From positions 5,877 to 69,876 of the forward strand of contig DUDU01000059.1 in NCBI GenBank assembly GCA_005110395.1: a DNA stretch of 64,000 nt, written 5' to 3'. Within the stretch, counting starts at the first letter, position 1; the number at the start of each line of letters is the position of its first letter. Below, one piece after another: positions 32,978 through 47,173 of the stretch. Both the position numbers and the translations under genes were made by a program. This DNA comes from Candidatus Melainabacteria bacterium. GTDB taxonomy: Bacteria; Cyanobacteriota; Vampirovibrionia; Caenarcaniphilales; Caenarcanaceae. The notes beneath the pieces were generated by a model, which did not search any database, was not told the origin of the DNA, and saw only the letters and a program-made list of their open reading frames with translations.

Positions 32978-33216
32978 TTGCTTTGCTAATTTATTTGGGA
33001 TTTACAGAAAATTATGAGTAATCAAGTATGCCATGAGCGAACGGCTATCACAAGTATGCACCTGAGGCAATGGTCTATCACAATTTAGACAGGAGCTCAA
33101 ATCTATTCGTAAATGCTAATGAATAGATTTCTAAAATTCATAATCAGAGTAAAAATAAGCAAATTTTCTTCTTGTTAACTTAATCAATCAAAAAATTTTA
33201 GGCTAATATATTTAAA

Positions 33217-33300
33217 CCGTTGAATGCGATGTGAATCAGCGAACCTGGTCAGGGGGGAAACTCAGCAGCCATAAGTTTGTGAAGCAGGTGCTTTCAACGG
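33217..33300 (+). ncRNA. ffs: Signal recognition particle RNA (small 4.5S type)
   Basis: CCUGGUCAGG-GGG-GAAA-CUC-AGCAGCCAUAAG matches the conserved helix-8 (domain IV) motif; closing stem ccgttgaa/ttcaacgg (8 bp). Confidence 0.65.
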
Positions 33301-33333
33301 CTCCATGATTAATTCATGTTTCAGTAAGATTAA

Positions 33334-38271: not shown

Positions 38272-39933
38272 TTGATTATGAGCCAAGTTAGAGTTTCACA
38301 AGCTTCATATAATTCAGACATAAATAACAAGAATATTATTCAATCAGATACTCCAGAAGTTGGCTTGAAAAGGGTATTGTCTGCCTTTGATTTAATAATG
38401 ATGGGCGTTGGATGTATTATAGGTGTTGGCATTTATATTCTCAGTGGTGTCGCTGCCGCCAATTATGCTGGACCTGCGGTTGTACTTTCTTTTATTTTAG
38501 CTGGAACTTTATGCGGTTTTGTAGCTTTAGCTTATGGCGAGCTCGCTTCGATGTTTCCGCTTGCAGGTAGCGCTTACAGCTATTCGTATTACGCTTTTGG
38601 CAAAAGAGTGGCTTGGTTTCTTGGCTGGACTTTGCTCTTGGAATACACGGTAGCTGCTAGTGCGGTGTCTTCAGGTTGGTCAGCTTATTTCCAAAGACTA
38701 TTAGCAAAATTACATATTATCTGGCCCGCATCGTTGGGAGCTACCCCAGGGAGTTTGCCTGATGGACAATGGAGTATTAATTTACCTGCTGTCATTATTC
38801 TCACTATTATCACGACTATTAGTGTAAGAGGTATTCAAGAATCAGCCAAATTTAACAATGTTATGGCAATAGTCAAAATTCTTGTACTTCTTCTCTTTAT
38901 CGGCTTCGGGGCTTGCTATATAAACCCTGCCAATTGGCATCCATTTATACCTGAAAGAATTGCAACTGTGGTAGCTCACAGTGGTTCCAGTAATGGTTTC
39001 TGGGAATTACCTCTCTTCGATATATTTGGGTCTTTCTTTCGACCTGGTGGACTCAATGCTTTAATCAATAACCAATCGCAATTTTGGCATTTTGGTTTTC
39101 AAGGTATTTTGACTGGATCAGCCATTGTATTCTTTACTTATGTGGGTTTTGATATGGTCTCAGCAACCTCTGAAGAAACCAAAAACCCAATTCGTGATAT
39201 TCCAATCGGCATTATTGGAAGTCTTTTGATTTCAACGGTGCTTTATATTGCAGTTAGCTTAGTTCTGACGGGTATTATGTCACCAGTGATCAACGGCTTG
39301 CCCAATGAAAAACTGATTGGTTCACAAGCCGCTGCCCCGCTAGATGTTGCCCTGTCGTCTTTGGCTGAGAGACTTCCCGGATTGCATGGGATGATTAATT
39401 TTGTTTCTGGTAGTCTTTCAATTGGTGCTTTAGCTGGGATTACAACTACTTTACTTGCTTTAGCATTGGGACTTTCCAGAATTTTATTGGCAATATCGCG
39501 CGACGGTTTTTTACCTCCATTTTTCGCCAAAATTCACGATAAATTTCAAACTCCTTATATTGCAACCCTTTTTTCTAATGCTCTTATTGCGCTTATTGCA
39601 GCCAGCCTTCCAATTGGTAAATTAGCGGAATTATGTAATCTGGGCACTTTGGCCGCATTTGTTTTTGTTTGTTTATCAGTAATTATTTTGCGAAAAAAGC
39701 ATCCTGAATTCAAAAGAGCTTTTATATGCCCAGCAGTTCCATGGGTACCACTAATAGGAATATTCTTTTGCTTAGTACTTATGCTCAGTCTTCCACTTAT
39801 TACCTGGATTTGGTTTGGAGCTTGGCTTTTAATCGGAGTTGCAATTTATTGGGGATATGGAAGAAAAAGAGCGGCCGATTTTCCAAATGCAGAAACTCTC
39901 AAAAAAGCGGTTGAAGGCTACAGTGGATTTTGA
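38272..39933 (+). CDS. APC-superfamily amino acid permease
   Basis: 12-TM topology; GVGCIIGVGIYILSG start and GTLAAF motif. Confidence 0.85.
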   Translation: MIMSQVRVSQASYNSDINNKNIIQSDTPEVGLKRVLSAFDLIMMGVGCIIGVGIYILSGVAAANYAGPAVVLSFILAGTLCGFVALAYGELASMFPLAGSAYSYSYYAFGKRVAWFLGWTLLLEYTVAASAVSSGWSAYFQRLLAKLHIIWPASLGATPGSLPDGQWSINLPAVIILTIITTISVRGIQESAKFNNVMAIVKILVLLLFIGFGACYINPANWHPFIPERIATVVAHSGSSNGFWELPLFDIFGSFFRPGGLNALINNQSQFWHFGFQGILTGSAIVFFTYVGFDMVSATSEETKNPIRDIPIGIIGSLLISTVLYIAVSLVLTGIMSPVINGLPNEKLIGSQAAAPLDVALSSLAERLPGLHGMINFVSGSLSIGALAGITTTLLALALGLSRILLAISRDGFLPPFFAKIHDKFQTPYIATLFSNALIALIAASLPIGKLAELCNLGTLAAFVFVCLSVIILRKKHPEFKRAFICPAVPWVPLIGIFFCLVLMLSLPLITWIWFGAWLLIGVAIYWGYGRKRAADFPNAETLKKAVEGYSGF

Positions 39934-40084
39934 AATACATGATAAAAGCCAGAAATTGAAGTTATTACGAATCTAAGGACTCAGCTAATGGTCAACATAA
40001 GGGAATGTACAACAAATTAAAAGAAGGATACTTTCAAAAAGTAATTAATCGGAAACACAGAAAACACCAATAAACCATTCAAAA

Positions 40085-40200
40085 TATAAAGTTTAAAAGC
40101 CGCTCTCCTAAAGCGAGAGGGAGTAAGAATTCGCATTTCCCTTTTCTCTGTTAAGAGAGATGTGCCCGAAGGGCGGAGAGAGTTAATCCCAGGATGCTGG
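40085..40200. other. GC-rich multi-hairpin element in an AT-rich intergenic region
   Basis: Local hairpins ctctc-ctaaagc-gagag, ctct-gttaag-agag and gccc-gaa-gggc. Lies between the permease stop and the pseudo 3' end. Confidence 0.4.
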
Positions 40201-40252
40201 AAATATTTTTTGCGTAAGGTACTCATCAAAAGATATTTTCAGTAAGCTCTCT

Positions 40253-40312
40253 ACTATATCCACTGTTAGCATACTCACATTGATAATGCTCAGAAGTAAA
40301 TCTAAAATGTAT
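40253..40312. repeat. Direct repeat copy A: 60 nt, 56/60 identical to the 3' coding end of the Type ISP gene; encodes a pseudo C-terminus ...RYILDLLLSIINVSMLTVDIVESLLKISFDE
   Basis: Aligned by eye with 41006..41065. Protein-level similarity continues past the repeat (DIVNNLPKVKFDD vs DIVESLLKISFDE). A stop sits 5 codons upstream. Confidence 0.7.
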
Positions 40313-40433
40313 CTTGACCAGCCTGATCCTTAGCCCAAATACAAAGGTTTTTCAATTCAGTAATAAAATAAAAGACAACTATTTTATTAATAATTCTGTT
40401 ATTCAGTTTAAATTATTTTCAATTTTACTAATT

Positions 40434-40619
40434 TTATTTACTATTGCTTATTTTACGCACAATATCTTGTAATTCTTTGATTGATTCATTAACTCGTTTT
40501 ATATCGCTAATTACTGATGGAATTCTATCTAATTCTTCTTCAACTCCTTTAGCAATTGAACTCAGATTATTTACTTGAGCTTCTAATTCTCCAACAAGTT
40601 CAGGTTCTACTTTCAACAT
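40434..40619 (-). CDS. Small coiled-coil protein (61 aa)
   Basis: Heptad-rich ELVGELEAQVNNLSSIAKGVEEELD...; second gene of the cassette between the repeats. Confidence 0.4.
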   Translation of the reverse strand: MLKVEPELVGELEAQVNNLSSIAKGVEEELDRIPSVISDIKRVNESIKELQDIVRKISNSK

Positions 40620-40651
40620 TATTTATTTTCACAAATTACTAGGATAGTTTT

Positions 40652-40966
40652 TTAGTTATTCCCAGTTTTATTGGAATTTTCAAGATAATTTTCAAGATAT
40701 TGCTTTAATTCTTCAAGTAATTTTCTTGATTTCTCTACTTCATCTTCCAAATCTCGAACTTTTAAACTCTTCTTCTTTAAGTTATCAATCTCCTCTCGCA
40801 GTCCCTTAATAGAAAGATTGAATTTAGCTATTTCTTTTCTAGTATTATTTTCGAATTGTTTCTTAGTAACAAAATAAACTGATACTGCTCCTATTAATCC
40901 TGTTACTGAAGAAGTAATTAAGGTTGTAATAGCTGGTGTTAATATTTTGTCAATTTCAATAACCAT
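40652..40966 (-). CDS. Small membrane-anchored coiled-coil protein (104 aa)
   Basis: N-terminal TM LITSSVTGLIGAVSVYFV, then coiled coil LSIKGLREEIDNLKKKSLKVRDLEDEVEKSRKLLEELKQYLE. Confidence 0.5.
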   Translation of the reverse strand: MVIEIDKILTPAITTLITSSVTGLIGAVSVYFVTKKQFENNTRKEIAKFNLSIKGLREEIDNLKKKSLKVRDLEDEVEKSRKLLEELKQYLENYLENSNKTGNN

Positions 40967-40971
40967 TTTGC

Positions 40972-43900
40972 TTAATCATCAAACTTAACCTTAGGTAAAT
41001 TATTCACTATATCCACTGTTTGCATACTCACATTGATAATACTCAAAAGTAAATCTAAAATATATCGTGGTTTTCCCGTTTCCGTTGCCCAATCGTTCGG
41101 ATCGTTTTTAATACCGCTCTCTTTGTGTACTGTTACTTGATAGCGTTCCATTATCCATTCAATCGCACTTTTTCCATTTACTACATATTGATATGCTTTT
41201 TCTGGAATATGTTCTATCGTGATTTGAGAATTATAAATAATCTTCTCTTTCTGTCCTTTGGCTGGGAACCGCATCTTTTCTACTCGATAATTTAAGTATT
41301 CTAATTCGTCTTTGTTTACCTGCTCTAAAGTATCTTTCATTGATAATGGACTAAGTAGTGTTATCACATCTGGCGAAGGTGGAACTGTTTCATAATTCAA
41401 ATGTAATTCTGCTAATTGTCTTCCTGCTTTGCTAAATGCCCAAAAGTCTTTCACATCCTCTAATAATGGCAATCTTGGCAACATTTTCTTTAAATCATTA
41501 GAAAATTTTTCTCTGTATTCCTTGCTGTGCAGAAAACCATAAACATAATAAAAAATATCTTCTTTGCTTACATTTTTACCGTATTGTTTTTTTGCTCTCT
41601 CTAAAATGAAATCACTGATTGCATCTCTGCGGATATATTTTTGTTCGCCAGTGGCATCAAATAAATTTAGTTTTTCCTGTTTTGTGTTGTTTTCTTCATA
41701 GTAATAAAGTGGGAAACATTGGCAAGCTGACAGCAAGCCCAGATCTGGAATGTTATTTACAATTAATGATGAATGAAATTTTGAATCTCCTGTGCCTGGG
41801 ATACAAATCAAAATATTTTCAATATTATTTTCAGGAAATAAAATAGGGAGCTTGGCAAGATCATTAACAATTTGTCTATCATAGAATATGTTCATCTTTG
41901 AAAATGGTCTATAATGCCCCATTCGCATCTTCCTGTTACTAAAAATATACTTTTTGCCTTTTACTAAATCATCTCTTAAGGCTCTTGACCAACTAATTTT
42001 AGTCTCGTTAGAATCAATAAAATCTTCAACTTTTGGTTTTGAAATCAAAGATGAATAATCATCAACTTGCTGATTGTAAAAATCCATTGTTCTTCTGGAA
42101 TTTAAAAGAACAGCATCTTTTGAGTAATTATAAACCCAAGCATCTCTGTTTGTTTTGACTCCATTAGAGTACAAAGGGACAAAGAAAGTACTTTTATTCT
42201 GCTTATCATCTTTATCACCTAAAGGAATATAATTTTCAAAAGCATCATTCCTAACACTGATCCAATCATTATGTTCATTAGGTTCTAATACTTTCAACGG
42301 TAAATCTGGATTTCCAAAGGATTTAAAATTACTGATGGTTTTGAGCTTATCTTCACGATTTAAATAATCACCAATGTCATAGTAATGAATACTTGCTTTT
42401 TCTGTTTTTATATCTGGATTTTTAACTAACAACGTTATTGAAATTGTATCTCTACACCCTGAACCAAAAACGTTACCTTTTTCTTTTTGTCTTAATTCAC
42501 CACTTGTCCTAGCATTGCCCCTCAAGTTGAACACATAAATTGAGGTAAATTCTTCCTCTATTGATTTGCGGAAACCATCAGCACTATTACTATCAATCCA
42601 GTTACCATTAGAAACAAAACATATAATACCTCCTGTTTTATCTAATCTATCTGCACTCCATCTAAAAGCTTTTATATAGCTGTTATAAAGAGAGTTTTTA
42701 TTTGTAGCACTAGTAAGCTTTGCATAAGTATCAGCGATGCGGTTATTTAGCTTTGGATATGCCTGATTTTGTGCATTGTCATTAGCAGAGGTCTGTCCGG
42801 CAGAATAAGGCGGATTACCCATAATAATACGCAAGGGGGCTTTTTGTTGTTTTTGTACTCTCTCTGAGTTTTGAGGAAACATTTCAGAGAATAATTTTTG
42901 ACCTTCTTCTGTTTCCCCAAGCTGAAAAGTATCAGTTAAGCATATACCTTCAAAAGGGAAATATTTTTCTTTTCCAATTCCATCATCAGGATCAGGTGTA
43001 GCGTCATGATAAGCATTTTCAATATTGATAGTTGCGATATAGTAAGCCAATAGAACAATTTCATTAGCATGAAGCTCTTGGTTGTATTTTCTATCTAAAT
43101 CTTTTTCTTCAATCAATCCACTCTGAAACAATCGAACCATAAAAGTACCAGTACCAGTGAATGGATCGAGTATATGAACATTTTCATCGGAGATAGAACG
43201 ATTAAATTCCTTTTTCAAAATATCATTGACTGAATGTATGATGAAATCAACTACTTCAACAGGGGTATAAACAATACCTAGTTTTTCCACCATTTTTGGA
43301 AAAGCTGTTTTAAAGAACTTATCGTACAACTCAATAATAATGCGTTGTTTCCCTTCAGCATTATCAATGTCAGAGGCACGAATTCTAACTGATTCATAAA
43401 ACTTTTGAAGTTCTTCTGTGTCTTTTTCTATGATCTTTTCTTCCAATAAATCCAACATTTTCTGCATAGACCTACTAATTGGATTGTTTTTCACGAAAGA
43501 ATATCCTTCAAACAAAGCATCGAATACTGGTTTTGTGATTATATGTTGAGATAGCATTTCAATAGCTTCATTCTGAGAAATGCTGGGATTTATGTTTTGA
43601 TGCAGCCCTTCTAAAAAAATATTAAATTCTTTCTGATGTTTTGGATTTTCATTAATAATTTTAGTAATGCGTTCTGTTTGTCTTGTAGCAATATCAGCTA
43701 CTGATTTAGCCCATTGTTCCCAATATCTTTTGTCACCGACTTTCTGAACCATTCGGGCAAATACCACTGATTGTAATTGTTGAAATTGCAGTGATAGCTG
43801 TTCAGAGATATTTTTAGATGATGGAATATTCCCCGTATCTGGATAGACTGGATTCCCCTCTCTATCAAATGAAATCTCAGGACGACCAACTAAAATTTGT

Positions 43901-45903
43901 TCGGGTTTATTTTTATTGAGTTCAATTTTATTTACAGTTGCATTGAAACGATCATCATGAGCCCTAAGTGCATTCAATACAGTCCAAACAACTTTATATC
44001 TTTCATTATCATTCAGCGCCTGATCAGGCTCAACATTTGAAGGAACAACAATTGGAATAATGATATAGCCATATTTTTTATTGGGGGCTTTTCGCATAAC
44101 CCGACCAACAGACTGGACTACGTCAACTTGTGAATTTCGAGCGGATAAGAATAAAACCGCATCCAAAGAAGGTACATCAACTCCTTCACTAAGACAGCGT
44201 ACATTTGTTAAAATTCGACATTCTCTTTCTTCTGGTTCATCTTTCAGCCAAGATAATAATTCATTTCTTTGAGTAGCATTCATTGAGCCGTCTATGTGCT
44301 TTGATGATACTAACTGCATTGAGCTTTGTTTTTCTGTAGGTAACTCAGAAATATAACTATCAGTTGCAATATTTAAAGTATTTGTTATTTTTTTTGATAC
44401 TGCGATACTTTGACAAAAAGCAACTGCTCTTCTCATTGGCTCTGGATCGGTTTCTTTTATAATCCCTTCATCCCCTAGAATTTGTTTTGAAAGTGCATTA
44501 ATACAGCCTATTAATTTCGAAGCATCATCAGTATTAATTTCATTTTCTTTGTCCATTATCATTTTTTGGACGGCTGGCGGTACATCATTCTCGTTGAGAG
44601 TCAGTATGAGAACCTTATAATCAGCTAATAAATCTTTCTCTACTGCTTCACCAAAACCGATTCTATATATTTCTTCACCATACAAACTGACATCATCCAT
44701 TGAACACAAAGTAGCTTCTGCTTGTGCGGCTTTACTCTTTGTTTCACCATCATATAATCGAGGAGTAGCAGTCATATAAAGGCGTTTTTTTGCTTTTATA
44801 AAATCATTGTTATGAACTTTAGTAAATGCACTTTCATCTTCATCAGCCAATGAAACTCCAGTAGTACGATGTGCTTCATCACAAATAATCAAATCAAACT
44901 CTGAAAATTCTGGATTGTATTTAGCTATTTCTTTTTGGGCTTTTGAAATAACTTCAATAGACTGATAAGTAGAAAAAACAACAGTTAAGCCATTATTTGA
45001 TTTTATTTTCAGGCATTTAAACTGGTGCAAAATACTTTTCACATCAGTAGAAGCTGGATATGCTAAATCTAAAACTGAGGATGTATCAATATCTTCTAAT
45101 TTTTTTCTTTTTTTTGTTATTTCAGGATCCGAACAAATACATATTGCATTGATTGGTTCTTTAGCATCTGCATACCATTCATTGAGAGTTTGCCCTAATA
45201 ATGCAATAGAAGGGACTAAGAACAATATTAAGCCTTTACCTTTAGTTTCATTTTCTGCAATACGAAGAGAAGTAAAAGTTTTCCCAGTACCACAAGCCAT
45301 AATGAGTTTACCTCTATCATTAGCTTGTAAATGTTCATTAGTTTTATTCAGAGCTTCTATTTGATGATGTCGTAATTCTTTTTTTTGTATTCTAGCTTCT
45401 TGTCCACAAATCCCATTCTCTAACTTACCCCAATCAATAGGAGAATTTATGAGATCATACAATCCCAATTTCATTACAGGTATTTGTTGATTCTCAAAAC
45501 TTTTTTCAGCATTAATTGAAAATGATTTACCTGTGGTATCAATCCAAAGTCTATACGCAAAAGATGTTGTTTTACAATCTTCTCCCTTGAATGAACGTCC
45601 AGAGGTAGTAATGAAAGTATCAACTTCTTTTTTGTCGATTATAGTACCTTCTTTGTAGCATTTACACTGTATAGCCCAATAATCACCTGTATGGGTTAAT
45701 GCAACTAAATCAATGCCAGTATCCTGTCCACCAAATTCTTGTTTACTAGGAAATTCTTCCCATAACCAAACTTTTTTTAGATTATCTGCATATTTAGGAT
45801 CTGTAAGCAAATAGGCTTTCATTAAGCGTTCAAATTTTGCACCCTTATCTCTTTCAGAAAAGGCAAATTTACGGTACTTTTCTAAGATTTGTTGAAAGCT
45901 CAT
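40972..45903 (-). CDS. Type ISP single-polypeptide restriction-modification enzyme (Mrr-like nuclease + SF2 helicase-like ATPase + gamma-class N6-adenine methyltransferase + target-recognition domain; LlaGI/LlaBIII-like)
   Basis: N-terminal PD-(D/E)xK GIDLVALTH..DYWAIQCKCY; Walker A MACGTGKTFT; DEAH LIICDEAHRTTG; methyltransferase motif I ILDPFTGTGTF; motif IV MGNPPYSAG; 1643 aa. Confidence 0.85.
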   Translation of the reverse strand: MSFQQILEKYRKFAFSERDKGAKFERLMKAYLLTDPKYADNLKKVWLWEEFPSKQEFGGQDTGIDLVALTHTGDYWAIQCKCYKEGTIIDKKEVDTFITTSGRSFKGEDCKTTSFAYRLWIDTTGKSFSINAEKSFENQQIPVMKLGLYDLINSPIDWGKLENGICGQEARIQKKELRHHQIEALNKTNEHLQANDRGKLIMACGTGKTFTSLRIAENETKGKGLILFLVPSIALLGQTLNEWYADAKEPINAICICSDPEITKKRKKLEDIDTSSVLDLAYPASTDVKSILHQFKCLKIKSNNGLTVVFSTYQSIEVISKAQKEIAKYNPEFSEFDLIICDEAHRTTGVSLADEDESAFTKVHNNDFIKAKKRLYMTATPRLYDGETKSKAAQAEATLCSMDDVSLYGEEIYRIGFGEAVEKDLLADYKVLILTLNENDVPPAVQKMIMDKENEINTDDASKLIGCINALSKQILGDEGIIKETDPEPMRRAVAFCQSIAVSKKITNTLNIATDSYISELPTEKQSSMQLVSSKHIDGSMNATQRNELLSWLKDEPEERECRILTNVRCLSEGVDVPSLDAVLFLSARNSQVDVVQSVGRVMRKAPNKKYGYIIIPIVVPSNVEPDQALNDNERYKVVWTVLNALRAHDDRFNATVNKIELNKNKPEQILVGRPEISFDREGNPVYPDTGNIPSSKNISEQLSLQFQQLQSVVFARMVQKVGDKRYWEQWAKSVADIATRQTERITKIINENPKHQKEFNIFLEGLHQNINPSISQNEAIEMLSQHIITKPVFDALFEGYSFVKNNPISRSMQKMLDLLEEKIIEKDTEELQKFYESVRIRASDIDNAEGKQRIIIELYDKFFKTAFPKMVEKLGIVYTPVEVVDFIIHSVNDILKKEFNRSISDENVHILDPFTGTGTFMVRLFQSGLIEEKDLDRKYNQELHANEIVLLAYYIATINIENAYHDATPDPDDGIGKEKYFPFEGICLTDTFQLGETEEGQKLFSEMFPQNSERVQKQQKAPLRIIMGNPPYSAGQTSANDNAQNQAYPKLNNRIADTYAKLTSATNKNSLYNSYIKAFRWSADRLDKTGGIICFVSNGNWIDSNSADGFRKSIEEEFTSIYVFNLRGNARTSGELRQKEKGNVFGSGCRDTISITLLVKNPDIKTEKASIHYYDIGDYLNREDKLKTISNFKSFGNPDLPLKVLEPNEHNDWISVRNDAFENYIPLGDKDDKQNKSTFFVPLYSNGVKTNRDAWVYNYSKDAVLLNSRRTMDFYNQQVDDYSSLISKPKVEDFIDSNETKISWSRALRDDLVKGKKYIFSNRKMRMGHYRPFSKMNIFYDRQIVNDLAKLPILFPENNIENILICIPGTGDSKFHSSLIVNNIPDLGLLSACQCFPLYYYEENNTKQEKLNLFDATGEQKYIRRDAISDFILERAKKQYGKNVSKEDIFYYVYGFLHSKEYREKFSNDLKKMLPRLPLLEDVKDFWAFSKAGRQLAELHLNYETVPPSPDVITLLSPLSMKDTLEQVNKDELEYLNYRVEKMRFPAKGQKEKIIYNSQITIEHIPEKAYQYVVNGKSAIEWIMERYQVTVHKESGIKNDPNDWATETGKPRYILDLLLSIINVSMQTVDIVNNLPKVKFDD
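41006..41065. repeat. Direct repeat copy B: the genuine 3' coding end of the Type ISP gene
   Basis: See copy A; the two copies are 753 bp apart. Confidence 0.7.
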
Positions 45904-46020
45904 TTGGGTAATTAAAAAAGTGAAAAAGCCAAATTAGAACAAAATTATATCAAACACTTCAATACTTTCATGGTGAGAAGCTTGATTAAATGGCCTACTT
46001 GAAAACATTCACCTTTCCTA

Positions 46021-46213
46021 AAAAGTTTTATTTGATATTGAAAGATACAAAAAGATAAAGCTAGAAAATACTTGGAACGTTTAATAAAAAATTCAAATCC
46101 TTTAGGGCTTTTTTCTGAAGATATTGAGCCGCAATCTAAAAGATTATTAGGAAATTTCCCACAAGCTTATACTCATGTTGCCGTCATCAACTCAGCTTTG
46201 TTATTGAATTGAA
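46021..46213 (+). pseudogene. Remnant C-terminus (~64 codons) of a glycoside hydrolase family 15 (glucoamylase/trehalase-type) gene
   Basis: ...GLFSEDIEPQSKRLLGNFPQAYTHVAVINSALLLN* matches the conserved GH15 C-terminal LGNFPQAFSHLALINAA signature. No GH15 body lies upstream. Confidence 0.55.
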
Positions 46214-46225
46214 GAATATTCTTGT

Positions 46226-47173
46226 CTATGCAGAACGTGAAGGAATTTCTCTACAATTTGTAAAAACCAAGATACCAATACTCACTATAATCATAAACAC
46301 GCAAATAATTTGAGCGGCAGGAAAAGATCCAATCAACAAACTATCCAATCGAATAAATTCAAGAAAAAACCTCCCAATCGAATACAAAATCAAATAAATT
46401 GGAAATAGACTTCCAGTACTAATTTTGAAAGGCAAATTTAACTGCAATCCCAAGACATTAAGCTTTTGTTTATCCTGATAAGTAATTGACTGATGCAAAG
46501 ATAATAAAAAGAAAAATACCAACAGCATATAAATCGATTCATAAAGAAAAGTAGGATGAAAACTTGTATAACCCAAATATTTTTCTGGTCTAAATTCTGG
46601 TGGTATAAATTGCGCCCAAGGTAATTGAGTTGGTTTGCCAAAGGCTTCATTATTGAAAAAATTACCCCAACGTCCAATTGCCTGCCCAATAGGCAAACCT
46701 AATGCAATTAAATCGGCTAAGTTTTTGAAAGGAGGTAAGTCAGATAATTTATTTTGTGATTTCTTGAATTGATAAACTAGCAGAGCTGACACAAAGCCCC
46801 CAAATATTCCTCCCTGAATTGATTGTCCTCCCTGCCATATTTGCAGAATTTCATTTGTATTGTGAGCAAAATAATTCCAACTCAAAATCACATACCAAAG
46901 CCTGGCACCAATTATTCCGCCAATAAAACAAATAAAAAGTAAGTCAAAAAGATTTTGCTTTTGTATTTCTGTTATTTGCCAGCTTTCTTTTTTCTCAGAG
47001 ATGATTTGTTCAGAGTCTTTTTTGAAAGGGCGAGATGCTCTGGAATTAATAACAAGAAAAGCAGCCAAAAACCCCAAACCTGTTAGCAAGCCGTACCAAC
47101 GTAAAGGCAAACTTCTATTCAGATTAAATAGCTCACCAAAATCAATAATGATTGAACCAGGCGAATGGAGCAT
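46226..47173 (-). CDS. lgt: Prolipoprotein diacylglyceryl transferase
   Basis: RWYGLLTGLGFL...GGIIGARLWYV...GNFFNNEAFG (Lgt signature region). Confidence 0.85.
   Translation of the reverse strand: MLHSPGSIIIDFGELFNLNRSLPLRWYGLLTGLGFLAAFLVINSRASRPFKKDSEQIISEKKESWQITEIQKQNLFDLLFICFIGGIIGARLWYVILSWNYFAHNTNEILQIWQGGQSIQGGIFGGFVSALLVYQFKKSQNKLSDLPPFKNLADLIALGLPIGQAIGRWGNFFNNEAFGKPTQLPWAQFIPPEFRPEKYLGYTSFHPTFLYESIYMLLVFFFLLSLHQSITYQDKQKLNVLGLQLNLPFKISTGSLFPIYLILYSIGRFFLEFIRLDSLLIGSFPAAQIICVFMIIVSIGILVFTNCREIPSRSA

What the first reader, a model, noticed from the sequence alone, without database searches (positions are those of the whole stretch)
40245..45903. Type ISP restriction-modification gene whose 3' end is duplicated ~750 bp downstream, flanking a cassette of two small coiled-coil ORFs
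The last ~60 nt of the 1643-aa Type ISP gene (41006..41065) recur at 40253..40312 with 56/60 identity. The downstream copy still encodes a recognisable but diverged C-terminal peptide, closed off by a stop 5 codons upstream. Between the copies lie two co-oriented small genes: a TM + coiled-coil protein of 104 aa and a coiled-coil protein of 61 aa. This looks like a small module that entered by recombination at the gene's 3' end and carried a replacement 3' end, as integrative elements do. Alternatively a second Type ISP copy was deleted and only its last 40 codons remain. Either way the two small proteins may be undescribed accessory partners of a Type ISP enzyme.
Basis: seen in the sequence. 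Interest (0 to 1): 0.7.

Follow-up and report, generated by a model that had tools for sequence, protein, structure and literature searches.

The report
Displaced restriction-gene end beside mobile cargo
A small mobile two-gene module, also found on plasmids, recombined into the end of a large restriction-enzyme gene, gave it a substitute tail and left the old tail decaying downstream; this shows how defence genes pick up passengers, but the passengers' function is unknown.

Summary
The repeat is real: 40220-40316 matches 40973-41069 (97 nt, 80%; core 64 nt, 92%), and none is expected by chance. The gene is a bona fide, motif-intact Type ISP enzyme. It lies in a 6.3-kb island (39940-46256) of a freshwater Melainabacteria chromosome, and sister strains lack the island.

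A sister strain that has the island but not the module settles the history. There, a single ISP 3' end runs straight into the sequence that follows the downstream copy in the window. So the downstream copy is the resident, displaced 3' end. It has since lost its stop codon to an 8-nt deletion.

The functional gene's last ~34 nt travel with a discrete 560-bp, AT-rich module (p104 plus p61). That module also sits 2-6 nt behind a Type III res gene on a Rep3 plasmid, a YhcG nuclease gene and another ISP allele.

Six of 80 other ISP loci show the same footprint with different defence or toxin-antitoxin cargo. No integrase or tandem paralogue was found.

The mechanism best fits homology-anchored C-terminal displacement. 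p104/p61 are an orphan family under purifying selection. They ride behind R-M genes generally and are not Type ISP-specific partners. Interest is moderate.

The parts
39940..46256 (.). Strain-variable 6.3-kb restriction-modification island between lgt and an amino-acid permease gene
   Evidence: Sister strains L108-L115 have lgt followed directly by the permease gene. Only 46 nt stand in place of window 39940-46256.
40972..45903 (-). Type ISP restriction-modification gene (1643 aa), apparently intact
   Evidence: Pfam finds Mrr_cat_2, ResIII, Helicase_C, ISP_coupler, N6_Mtase/Eco57I and Type_ISP_C. PADLOC REase_MTase_IIG matches full length. LlaBIII 4xqk scores 1246 bits. The motifs GTGKT, DEAH, DPFTGTGTF and NPPY are readable in the translation.
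41006..41069 (-). Conserved 3' block of the functional gene (encodes RYILDLLLSIINVSMQTVDIV); upstream repeat copy and recombination crossover zone
   Evidence: It is 92% identical to 40253-40316. It is 85-91% identical at the nucleotide level even to Bacteroidota ISP genes. The right edge of the allele-exchange tract between strains falls here.
40972..41005 (-). Substitute tail of the functional gene (NNLPKVKFDD, stop)
   Evidence: It is only about 58% identical to the relic tail. It is shared with L085 and with L097, where it also precedes the module. It differs from the resident tail of L116.
40407..40966 (-). Mobile 560-bp two-gene module (GC 0.27)
   Evidence: The same segment is 94.5% identical behind a Type III res gene on Rep3 plasmid contigs L092-L096 and behind another ISP allele in L097. 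It is 74% identical behind a YhcG gene in L090 and L099. Homology starts at the p104 start codon and ends about 27 nt after the p61 stop.
40652..40966 (-). p104: small protein with a hydrophobic N-terminal segment and a long helix; starts 5 nt after the ISP stop codon
   Evidence: AlphaFold2 predicts a single helix over residues 5-102, pLDDT 87.6. dN/dS is 0.22-0.30, and indels are 7 or 14 codons. It is an orphan family, with one true hit among 1.84 billion representatives.
40434..40619 (-). p61: small helical-hairpin protein, always paired with p104
   Evidence: AlphaFold2 predicts helices H6-31 and H33-59, pLDDT 95. dN/dS is 0.22-0.44. Only one homologous cluster was found.
40326..40406 (-). 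AT-rich spacer of unknown origin between the module and the relic; includes a weak AU hairpin
   Evidence: It has no homologue in any fetched locus outside this species. The fold is no better than shuffled sequence.
40183..40325 (-). Relic of the resident Type ISP 3' end (downstream repeat copy) with read-through tail
   Evidence: It aligns with the last 107 nt of the L116 ISP gene, and the alignment continues downstream (win 40325-37500 = L116 10117-12963, 95.7%). An 8-nt deletion at 40220/40219 removed the stop codon. An in-frame stop lies 5 codons upstream of RYILD.
39940..40182 (-). Original downstream flank of the resident ISP gene inside the island
   Evidence: In L116 it lies directly after the ISP stop codon. 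No Rfam match was found, and it has no unusual fold.
46072..46212 (+). 46-codon fragment of a glycoside hydrolase family 15 gene (C-terminal end); debris inside the island
   Evidence: Pfam Glyco_hydro_15 profile positions 388-426 of 427, E = 6.7e-4, below the gathering score.
46226..46300 (-). 3' end of lgt, which differs from the empty-site allele (315 vs 312 aa); left border of the island
   Evidence: The last ~75 nt are mosaic or diverged relative to L108, while the 130 nt before them are identical.

Best explanation
The downstream copy is the original 3' end of the island's Type ISP gene, pushed aside by an incoming DNA segment.

The incoming segment came from an AT-rich donor, probably a plasmid. 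It carried the last codons of another ISP gene, followed directly by the two-gene module p104-p61. It recombined into the resident gene. On the left it paired homologously within the ISP gene, whose last helix is encoded by an unusually conserved 64-nt block. On the right it joined without homology just upstream of the resident copy of that block.

The gene therefore kept a complete reading frame with a substitute tail. The module landed 5 nt after the new stop codon. The old end was stranded 753 nt downstream, where it is decaying.

Later exchanges of ISP alleles between strains again used the same conserved block as their right-hand crossover.

The module has no recognisable promoter or terminator of its own. 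It is probably expressed by read-through or coupling from the nuclease gene.

The module is a rare mobile passenger of restriction loci, not a dedicated ISP subunit. My best guess for its function, at low confidence, is a self-contained membrane-acting toxin-antitoxin-like or abortive-infection pair.

Shown: the repeat, the un-duplicated sister state, the identity of the relic, the module's other contexts, the allele-exchange boundary and the recurrence in other ISP loci.

Inferred: the direction and type of the recombination events, co-expression with the ISP gene, and any function of the module.
For: 1. Sister strains L116/L117 carry the island with one ISP 3' end. That end is directly contiguous with the sequence that follows the relic in the window. 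The relic shares the resident tail 'KISFDE' and differs by an 8-nt deletion that removes the stop codon.
2. The functional gene's tail TAAGGTTAAGTTTGATGA is found with the module in L097. L097's right flank matches that of the Rep3 plasmid contigs.
3. The module is a discrete 560-bp unit seen in three other contexts:
   - behind a Type III res gene on a Rep3 plasmid;
   - behind a YhcG gene that follows an Eco57I/MmeI-type methyltransferase gene;
   - behind another ISP allele.
   Each time it begins 2-6 nt after the upstream stop codon.
4. The module's GC content is 0.27, like the plasmid's 0.28. The island is 0.32 and the window 0.35.
5. Two ISP alleles in the same species differ only between about 44650 and 41000. 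There are zero differences upstream of that tract. There are also none from the ISP tail through the module and relic.
6. The 64-nt block is 85-91% identical at the nucleotide level across phyla.
7. Six of 80 other ISP loci have the same layout: ISP, cargo, then a same-strand relic of the ISP 3' end. Repeats are 75-215 nt at 83-99% identity. In the four loci measured (L013, L020, L052, L074) the cargo is AT-richer than the ISP gene. Cargo genes are a ClpP-like SDH protease, an HTH-containing trio, YhcG and a PemK toxin pair.
8. The mechanism has precedent. C-terminal displacement by homology-facilitated illegitimate recombination is described for T6SS effector modules, and the same paper cites it for Rhs loci (PMC5361080).
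Against: - No donor carrying the 81-nt spacer (40326-40406) was found, so the right-hand junction cannot be reconstructed.
- The block in the functional gene has since been overwritten by allele exchange. The original left crossover cannot be placed.
- The polarity rests on parsimony: L116 is taken as ancestral rather than as an excision product. The relic's decay and L116's intact stop codon support this.
- There are no expression data, so co-transcription is inferred from 5-nt spacing and the lack of predicted terminators.
- The conserved block shows no excess synonymous conservation. Its use as an anchor is opportunistic, not evidence of a selected site.
- Orphan ISP 3' ends also exist where the whole ISP gene is gone. 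Some relics elsewhere are therefore plain deletion remnants.
Confidence: 0.72

Rival explanations
1. Plasmid cointegrate followed by deletion. A plasmid carrying an ISP gene plus the module integrated by a single crossover between the two ISP genes. This gave two full-length chimeric ISP copies flanking the plasmid backbone. A later deletion removed the backbone and all but the last ~35 codons of the second copy.
For: ISP-plus-module with a plasmid-type right flank exists in L097, and the module is linked to a Rep3 gene in L092, L093 and L095. The outcome would be identical: a donor tail on the functional gene and a resident tail on the relic.
Against: No contig shows tandem ISP genes or plasmid backbone at this locus in about 30 contigs covering it. 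The spacer after the module differs from the plasmid's right flank beyond about 27 nt. It needs two events where one suffices.
Confidence: 0.18
2. Site-specific integrative cassette. The module is a mobile element that targets an attachment site in the conserved 3' block of Type ISP genes through a recombinase encoded elsewhere. It carries a replacement 3' end, as tRNA-targeting islands do.
For: The direct repeats flank the cargo, and the footprint recurs at ISP 3' ends in several phyla.
Against: The island has no integrase. Repeat lengths and boundaries differ among loci (75-215 nt), and the cargo genes are unrelated. The same module sits behind res and YhcG genes with no ISP fragment beside it. 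No conserved inverted repeats mark its ends. The block shows no nucleotide-level selection.
Confidence: 0.04
3. Silent 3' cassette for programmed variation. The downstream copy is kept as a recombination partner so that the enzyme's C-terminal end, or its specificity, can switch, as in phase-variable hsdS loci.
For: Partial 3' copies next to R-M specificity genes are a known design, and R-M loci are enriched near programmed inversions (PMC9881135). ISP alleles in this species do differ mainly in the TRD.
Against: The copy is in direct orientation. It covers about 35 codons and no TRD. It has an upstream stop codon and an 8-nt deletion. It is 100% identical in all strains regardless of ISP allele. 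No recombinase gene is nearby.
Confidence: 0.03
4. p104 and p61 are functional partners of translocating restriction enzymes. For example, they could act as a membrane-bound backup effector or guard that fires when restriction is blocked.
For: All four independent contexts place the pair 2-6 nt behind an R-M-associated nuclease gene and on the same strand. Both genes are under purifying selection. R-M operons are known to embed second-line toxins such as PrrC and RhuM (PMC3710099).
Against: The upstream enzymes are of three unrelated kinds. The pair is absent from 80 other ISP loci and is an orphan family. The slot downstream of ISP genes holds many unrelated defence genes. The pair is also linked to a plasmid replication gene, so a role in plasmid maintenance is equally possible.
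Confidence: 0.2

Closest known systems
C-terminal displacement with orphan 3' ends in Rhs, CdiA and T6SS effector-immunity loci (homology-facilitated illegitimate recombination model; PMC5361080, which cites Jackson et al. 2009)
   Same: A conserved upstream part of a long gene anchors incoming DNA. The incoming DNA supplies a new 3' end plus downstream gene(s). The old 3' end is shifted downstream in direct orientation and persists as an orphan. No dedicated recombinase is involved.
   Different: Here the displaced piece is only about 35 codons and carries no functional domain or immunity gene. The host gene is a restriction enzyme, not a polymorphic toxin. The variable payload lies after the stop codon rather than forming the protein's C-terminal domain.
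Accessory or toxin genes embedded in R-M operons (PrrC, RhuM, DUF1016/YhcG, Fic/Doc, HEPN-MNT; PMC3710099, PMC9881135)
   Same: Small or toxin-like genes are inserted in or next to R-M genes and are co-oriented with them. YhcG, RhuM, DUF559 and a PemK pair appear as cargo in the related loci examined here.
   Different: p104 and p61 have no similarity to any described cargo family. The repeated 3' end is not, as far as I know (no targeted literature search was run), a described feature of such insertions.
Natural TRD exchange between Type ISP enzymes LlaGI and LlaBIII (PMC3553950)
   Same: Two enzymes are nearly identical in the nuclease, helicase and methyltransferase domains but differ in the specificity domain. 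The window allele and the L085 allele of this species show the same pattern.
   Different: That case was described between plasmid-borne lactococcal enzymes. Here the exchange tract is mapped within one chromosomal locus, and its right edge lies in the conserved 3' block next to the cargo.
Integrative elements that target the 3' end of a gene and restore it (tRNA/tmRNA-type islands)
   Same: A direct repeat of the target's 3' end flanks the inserted DNA, and the target gene stays intact.
   Different: There is no integrase, no exact att core, a variable repeat length and a 0.7-kb payload. Membership was tested and not met.

Membership tests
Type ISP restriction-modification enzyme | A single polypeptide with an Mrr-family nuclease, SF2 helicase-like ATPase, coupler, gamma-class N6-adenine methyltransferase and C-terminal TRD | tested here: met
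   All Pfam domains are present in that order. There are near-full-length matches to LlaBIII 4xqk and LlaGI 5ffj.
Type ISP restriction-modification enzyme | Catalytic motifs intact (Walker A, DEAH, methyltransferase motifs I and IV) | tested here: met
   GTGKT, DEAH, DPFTGTGTF and NPPY are readable in the translation.
Type ISP restriction-modification enzyme | ATP-dependent translocation and cleavage on collision; hemimethylation of an asymmetric site | not testable with these tools
   Requires biochemistry.
Integrase-mediated integrative element with a replacement 3' end | An integrase or recombinase gene within the element | tested here: not met
   The island has no such ORF. The inserted segment holds only p104 and p61.
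Integrase-mediated integrative element with a replacement 3' end | An exact att core repeated at both ends, with the same site used in independent insertions | tested here: not met
   The repeat is 92% identical over 64 nt, then about 58%. Other loci have repeats of 75-215 nt with different boundaries.
Phase-variable R-M specificity shufflon | Inverted partial copies containing alternative TRDs, plus a nearby recombinase | tested here: not met
   The copy is in direct orientation, covers about 35 codons, has no TRD, is decayed, and no recombinase is nearby.
C-terminal displacement loci (Rhs/CdiA/T6SS type) | An orphan 3' end of the same gene family downstream, on the same strand, separated by newly acquired gene(s) | tested here: met
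   Seen in the window and in six other ISP loci.
C-terminal displacement loci (Rhs/CdiA/T6SS type) | The orphan retains a variable functional domain with a cognate immunity gene | tested here: not met
   The relic encodes only the conserved last helix and tail. No associated gene is present.
Known toxin-antitoxin or anti-phage defence families (for p104/p61) | Sequence or profile similarity to a described family | tested here: not met
   Pfam hits are all below the gathering scores, and the PADLOC, NCBIfam and PHROGs hits are all weak. The PHROGs hits are to families of unknown function. The PDB search of p104 found nothing; p61 was not searched.
R-M-embedded cargo genes | Recurrent, co-oriented adjacency to R-M genes in independent genomic contexts | tested here: met
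   The pair follows an ISP gene (window, L097), a Type III res gene (L092-L096) and a YhcG gene after an Eco57I/MmeI-type methyltransferase gene (L090, L099).

The most novel reading that the evidence does not exclude
p104-p61 is a previously undescribed, portable second-line defence or addiction module. It works only when translationally coupled to a translocating restriction nuclease (Type ISP, Type III Res). A membrane-anchored coiled-coil effector is held in check by a helical-hairpin partner and released when restriction is blocked. More broadly, the conserved last helix of Type ISP genes would serve as an integrase-free landing pad that lets such cargo spread between unrelated ISP loci by ordinary recombination.
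Probability: 0.12. Interest if true: 0.7.

Novelty: new variant of a known kind. Interest (0 to 1): 0.45.

Why it matters
This locus is a clean natural record of how a defence gene picks up passengers. The empty site, the island without cargo, the island with cargo and the likely plasmid source all survive in related metagenome contigs. The order of events can therefore be read directly.

It extends the C-terminal displacement pattern, known from polymorphic toxin loci, to a restriction enzyme gene. It also shows that the pattern recurs at Type ISP genes in several phyla.

It defines a 560-bp orphan module that consistently rides behind restriction nuclease genes on both plasmid and chromosome. 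That module is a small, testable candidate for a new defence or addiction function.

The related split ISP gene, with two cargo genes between its methyltransferase and specificity parts, raises a further question. Can a single-chain restriction enzyme still work as two polypeptides?

Nothing here overturns current understanding.

Tried and rejected
- **Nucleotide-level selection on the 64-nt block (a dedicated docking site).** Codon-pair identity at conserved degenerate columns was 0.37 in the block and 0.41 elsewhere, p = 0.35. Rejected.
- **Relic extending further upstream.** The alignment gains about 25 nt with one gap. The region upstream of 40317 scores no better than shuffled sequence. 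Not claimed.
- **Terminal inverted repeats or transposon-like ends on the module.** None is conserved across contexts.
- **Structured RNA.** The spacer and the flank downstream of the relic fold no better than shuffles. Rfam finds only SRP RNA elsewhere in the window. There are no tRNA genes.
- **Terminator and promoter scan.** No terminator-like site was found in 39800-46300, and promoter-like sites are at the chance level.
- **Homologues of p104/p61:**
  - The word-indexed searches gave 3 and 1 clusters.
  - The full HMM search of 1.84 billion representatives gave one true hit.
  - Viral contigs, the phage database and the plasmid database gave none.
  - Metagenome contigs gave one extra locus.
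- **Similarity of the spacer, the downstream flank or the region upstream of the ISP gene to any other fetched locus.** None.
- **A conserved downstream partner of ISP genes.** The slot holds unrelated defence genes.
- **Strains with the relic's tail attached to a full-length gene.** Not found.
- **L093, where res is not called as one ORF.** Probably scaffold gaps or frameshifts, so I did not interpret it.
Full report
**1. The observation**

The repeat is real. The repeat finder reports 40220-40316 and 40973-41069 as a 97-nt ungapped direct repeat, 80% identical and 753 nt apart. The core of 64 nt (41069-41006 vs 40316-40253) is 92% identical. A degenerate 54-nt pattern drawn from it hits only these two sites, and none is expected in shuffles.

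The same arrangement appears base for base in about 20 contigs from independent JGI, ENA and Logan assemblies. It is therefore not an assembly artefact.

The similar block is not the literal end of the gene. The last 33 nt, encoding NNLPKVKFDD and the stop codon, are only about 58% identical to the corresponding part of the downstream copy.

**2. The large gene**

The ORF 40972-45903 (minus strand, 1643 aa) has the full Type ISP domain order: Mrr nuclease, SF2 helicase, coupler, N6-adenine methyltransferase and Type_ISP_C. It matches the solved enzymes LlaBIII and LlaGI along most of its length. It retains the GTGKT, DEAH, DPFTGTGTF and NPPY motifs.

**3. The genomic setting**

- The organism is a freshwater 'Candidatus Melainabacteria' MAG, going by the names attached to identical proteins.
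- Sister strains (L108-L115) have lgt followed at once by the amino-acid permease gene. Window 39940-46256 (6317 bp) is replaced there by 46 nt. The ISP gene therefore lies in a strain-variable island.
- The island also holds a 46-codon fragment of a GH15 gene.
- Its left border includes a diverged lgt 3' end.
- These features point to a patchwork history.

**4. What the downstream copy is**

Strains L116/L117 carry the island without the two small genes and without any duplication. Their ISP gene ends ...RYILDLLLSIINVSVQTVDIVNNLPKISFDE*. It then runs straight into the sequence that follows the downstream copy in the window (win 40325-37500 = L116 10117-12963, 95.7%).

The downstream copy shares the resident tail (AAAATATCTTTTGATGA, 'KISFDE'). 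It lacks 8 nt that include the stop codon. This explains the odd read-through peptide YLTQKIFPASWD*.

So the downstream copy is the island's original ISP 3' end, now a decaying relic. The functional gene's tail (TAAGGTTAAGTTTGATGA) is different. It is shared with L097, where it also precedes the two small genes.

**5. The inserted module**

Comparison with other contigs delimits a 560-bp unit, window 40966-40407. It runs from the p104 start codon to about 27 nt past the p61 stop codon. It occurs in three other contexts:

- **Behind a Type III res gene.** The operon is mod, MNT, HEPN, res, followed by a Rep3 replication gene, so it is on a plasmid. Identity is 94.5%.
- **Behind another ISP allele with the plasmid-type right flank** (L097).
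- **Behind a YhcG/DUF1016 nuclease gene.** That gene follows an Eco57I/MmeI-type methyltransferase gene. Identity is 74% (L090, L099).

In each context p104 starts 2-6 nt after the upstream stop codon. The module's GC content (0.27) matches the plasmid (0.28) rather than the chromosome (0.35).

Both genes are under purifying selection, with dN/dS of 0.22-0.44. The length variants of p104 differ by 7 or 14 codons, as expected for a coiled coil.

AlphaFold2 predicts one long helix for p104, whose N-terminal segment is hydrophobic. It predicts a helical hairpin for p61.

The family is an orphan:

- Three and one related clusters were found among 5.8 billion proteins.
- One true hit was found among 1.84 billion representatives.
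- No meaningful match was found in Pfam, PADLOC, PHROGs or NCBIfam for either protein, or in the PDB for p104.

**6. Is it an ISP partner?**

No. None of 80 ISP loci from other bacteria has a homologue. The position just downstream of ISP genes is a variable slot. It is filled by unrelated defence genes, including Piwi, putAbiC, GmrSD, TIR, SIR2, OLD-TOPRIM and PIN.

The pair's consistent placement behind R-M nuclease genes of three kinds is notable. It is equally compatible with a defence-related function or with a plasmid or island addiction function.

**7. The conserved block as a recombination anchor**

Two ISP alleles coexist in the species. Window and L085 differ only between about 44650 and 41000, by up to 40% in the TRD. 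They are identical upstream. They are also identical from the tail through the module and relic. The exchange tract thus ends in the conserved block.

That block is 85-91% identical in nucleotides even to Pedobacter and other Bacteroidota genes. Consequently, 92-93% identity between the two window copies does not by itself prove a recent duplication.

The conservation is explained by the protein sequence. Synonymous sites in the block are no more conserved than elsewhere.

Exchange of the TRD between otherwise near-identical ISP enzymes has precedent in LlaGI and LlaBIII (PMC3553950).

**8. Recurrence**

tblastn of the window protein against the 80 loci finds a same-strand relic of the ISP 3' end downstream of the intact gene in six of them. 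The loci are L013, L020, L052, L074 and L036/L037. Repeats are 75-215 nt at 83-99% identity. Where measured (L013, L020, L052, L074), the cargo is AT-richer than the ISP gene.

| Locus | Cargo between the ISP gene and the relic |
|---|---|
| L013 | ClpP-like SDH protease plus a small ORF |
| L020 | Three ORFs, one with an HTH domain |
| L052 | YhcG |
| L074 | PemK-type toxin pair |
| L036/L037 | No identified gene between gene and relic; an IS21 element lies just beyond the relic in L036 |

No 5' relics and no opposite-strand relics were seen. Orphan ISP 3' ends also occur where no ISP gene remains. Relics can therefore outlive the gene.

**9. Mechanism**

The simplest account is homology-anchored displacement. 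Incoming DNA pairs with the resident ISP gene on one side and joins illegitimately on the other. It brings a substitute 3' end and the cargo and strands the old end.

This is the model proposed for orphan 3' ends in T6SS effector-immunity loci, and the same paper cites it for Rhs loci (PMC5361080).

A plasmid cointegrate trimmed by deletion would give the same product and cannot be excluded.

An integrase-driven element and a phase-variation cassette are both disfavoured, for these reasons:

- no recombinase is present;
- the boundaries vary between loci;
- the copies are in direct orientation;
- the relic is decayed and fixed in all strains.

**10. Related finding**

In L116/L117 the ISP gene is split exactly at the linker between the methyltransferase and the TRD. 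A DUF559 gene and a RhuM gene are inserted there. The four ORFs overlap by 4 nt. The cargo supplies a new stop codon and a new start codon. RhuM and DUF1016 are known R-M-embedded cargo (PMC3710099, PMC9881135).

**11. Verdict**

This is a new variant of a known kind of event. It is documented with unusual completeness and comes with a rare orphan module of unknown function.

Noticed in passing
L116 3720-10223 and L117 9689-15037 (same locus in sister strains): The Type ISP gene is split at the methyltransferase-TRD linker by two inserted genes, DUF559 (178 aa) and RhuM (333 aa). This gives four ORFs with 4-nt overlaps: 1172 aa (nuclease, helicase, coupler, methyltransferase), DUF559, RhuM and a 485-aa TRD-only ORF. 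Whether the two-part enzyme works is unknown.
   Followed up: partly
window 39940-46256: The whole ISP locus is a 6.3-kb presence/absence island. Sister strains L108-L115 have only 46 nt between lgt and the permease gene.
   Followed up: yes
window 46072-46212 (+): A 46-codon ORF matches the extreme C-terminus of glycoside hydrolase family 15 (E = 6.7e-4, below the gathering score). It is probably a gene fragment carried in with the island.
   Followed up: partly
window 46226-46300 (-): The last ~75 nt of lgt differ strongly from the empty-site allele (315 vs 312 aa), while the preceding 130 nt are identical. The island border therefore also replaced the 3' end of lgt.
   Followed up: partly
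window 41000-44650 (-): Two ISP alleles (1643 aa and 1624 aa) coexist in the species and differ only in this tract, most strongly in the TRD. Many metagenome contigs break inside the gene, as expected for a polymorphic region.
   Followed up: yes
L092 96-7621 (also L093-L095): A Rep3 plasmid-like contig (GC 0.28) carries a Type III R-M operon with an MNT-HEPN pair inserted between mod and res. The p104-p61 module follows res.
   Followed up: partly
L118/L119 7248-9300; L120/L121 9001-9258: Orphan Type_ISP_C fragments of 85-99 aa sit on long contigs with no ISP gene within 9 kb. In L118/L119 the fragment lies directly after a Peptidase_M78 plus DUF4411 pair.
   Followed up: no
window 39940-40182 (-): The flank downstream of the relic is GC-richer than its surroundings and contains short G+C-rich palindromic stretches. 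It has no Rfam match and folds no better than shuffled sequence. Its origin is unknown.
   Followed up: partly
window 33214-33306 (+): Bacterial small SRP RNA gene (Rfam RF00169, 47 bits).
   Followed up: no
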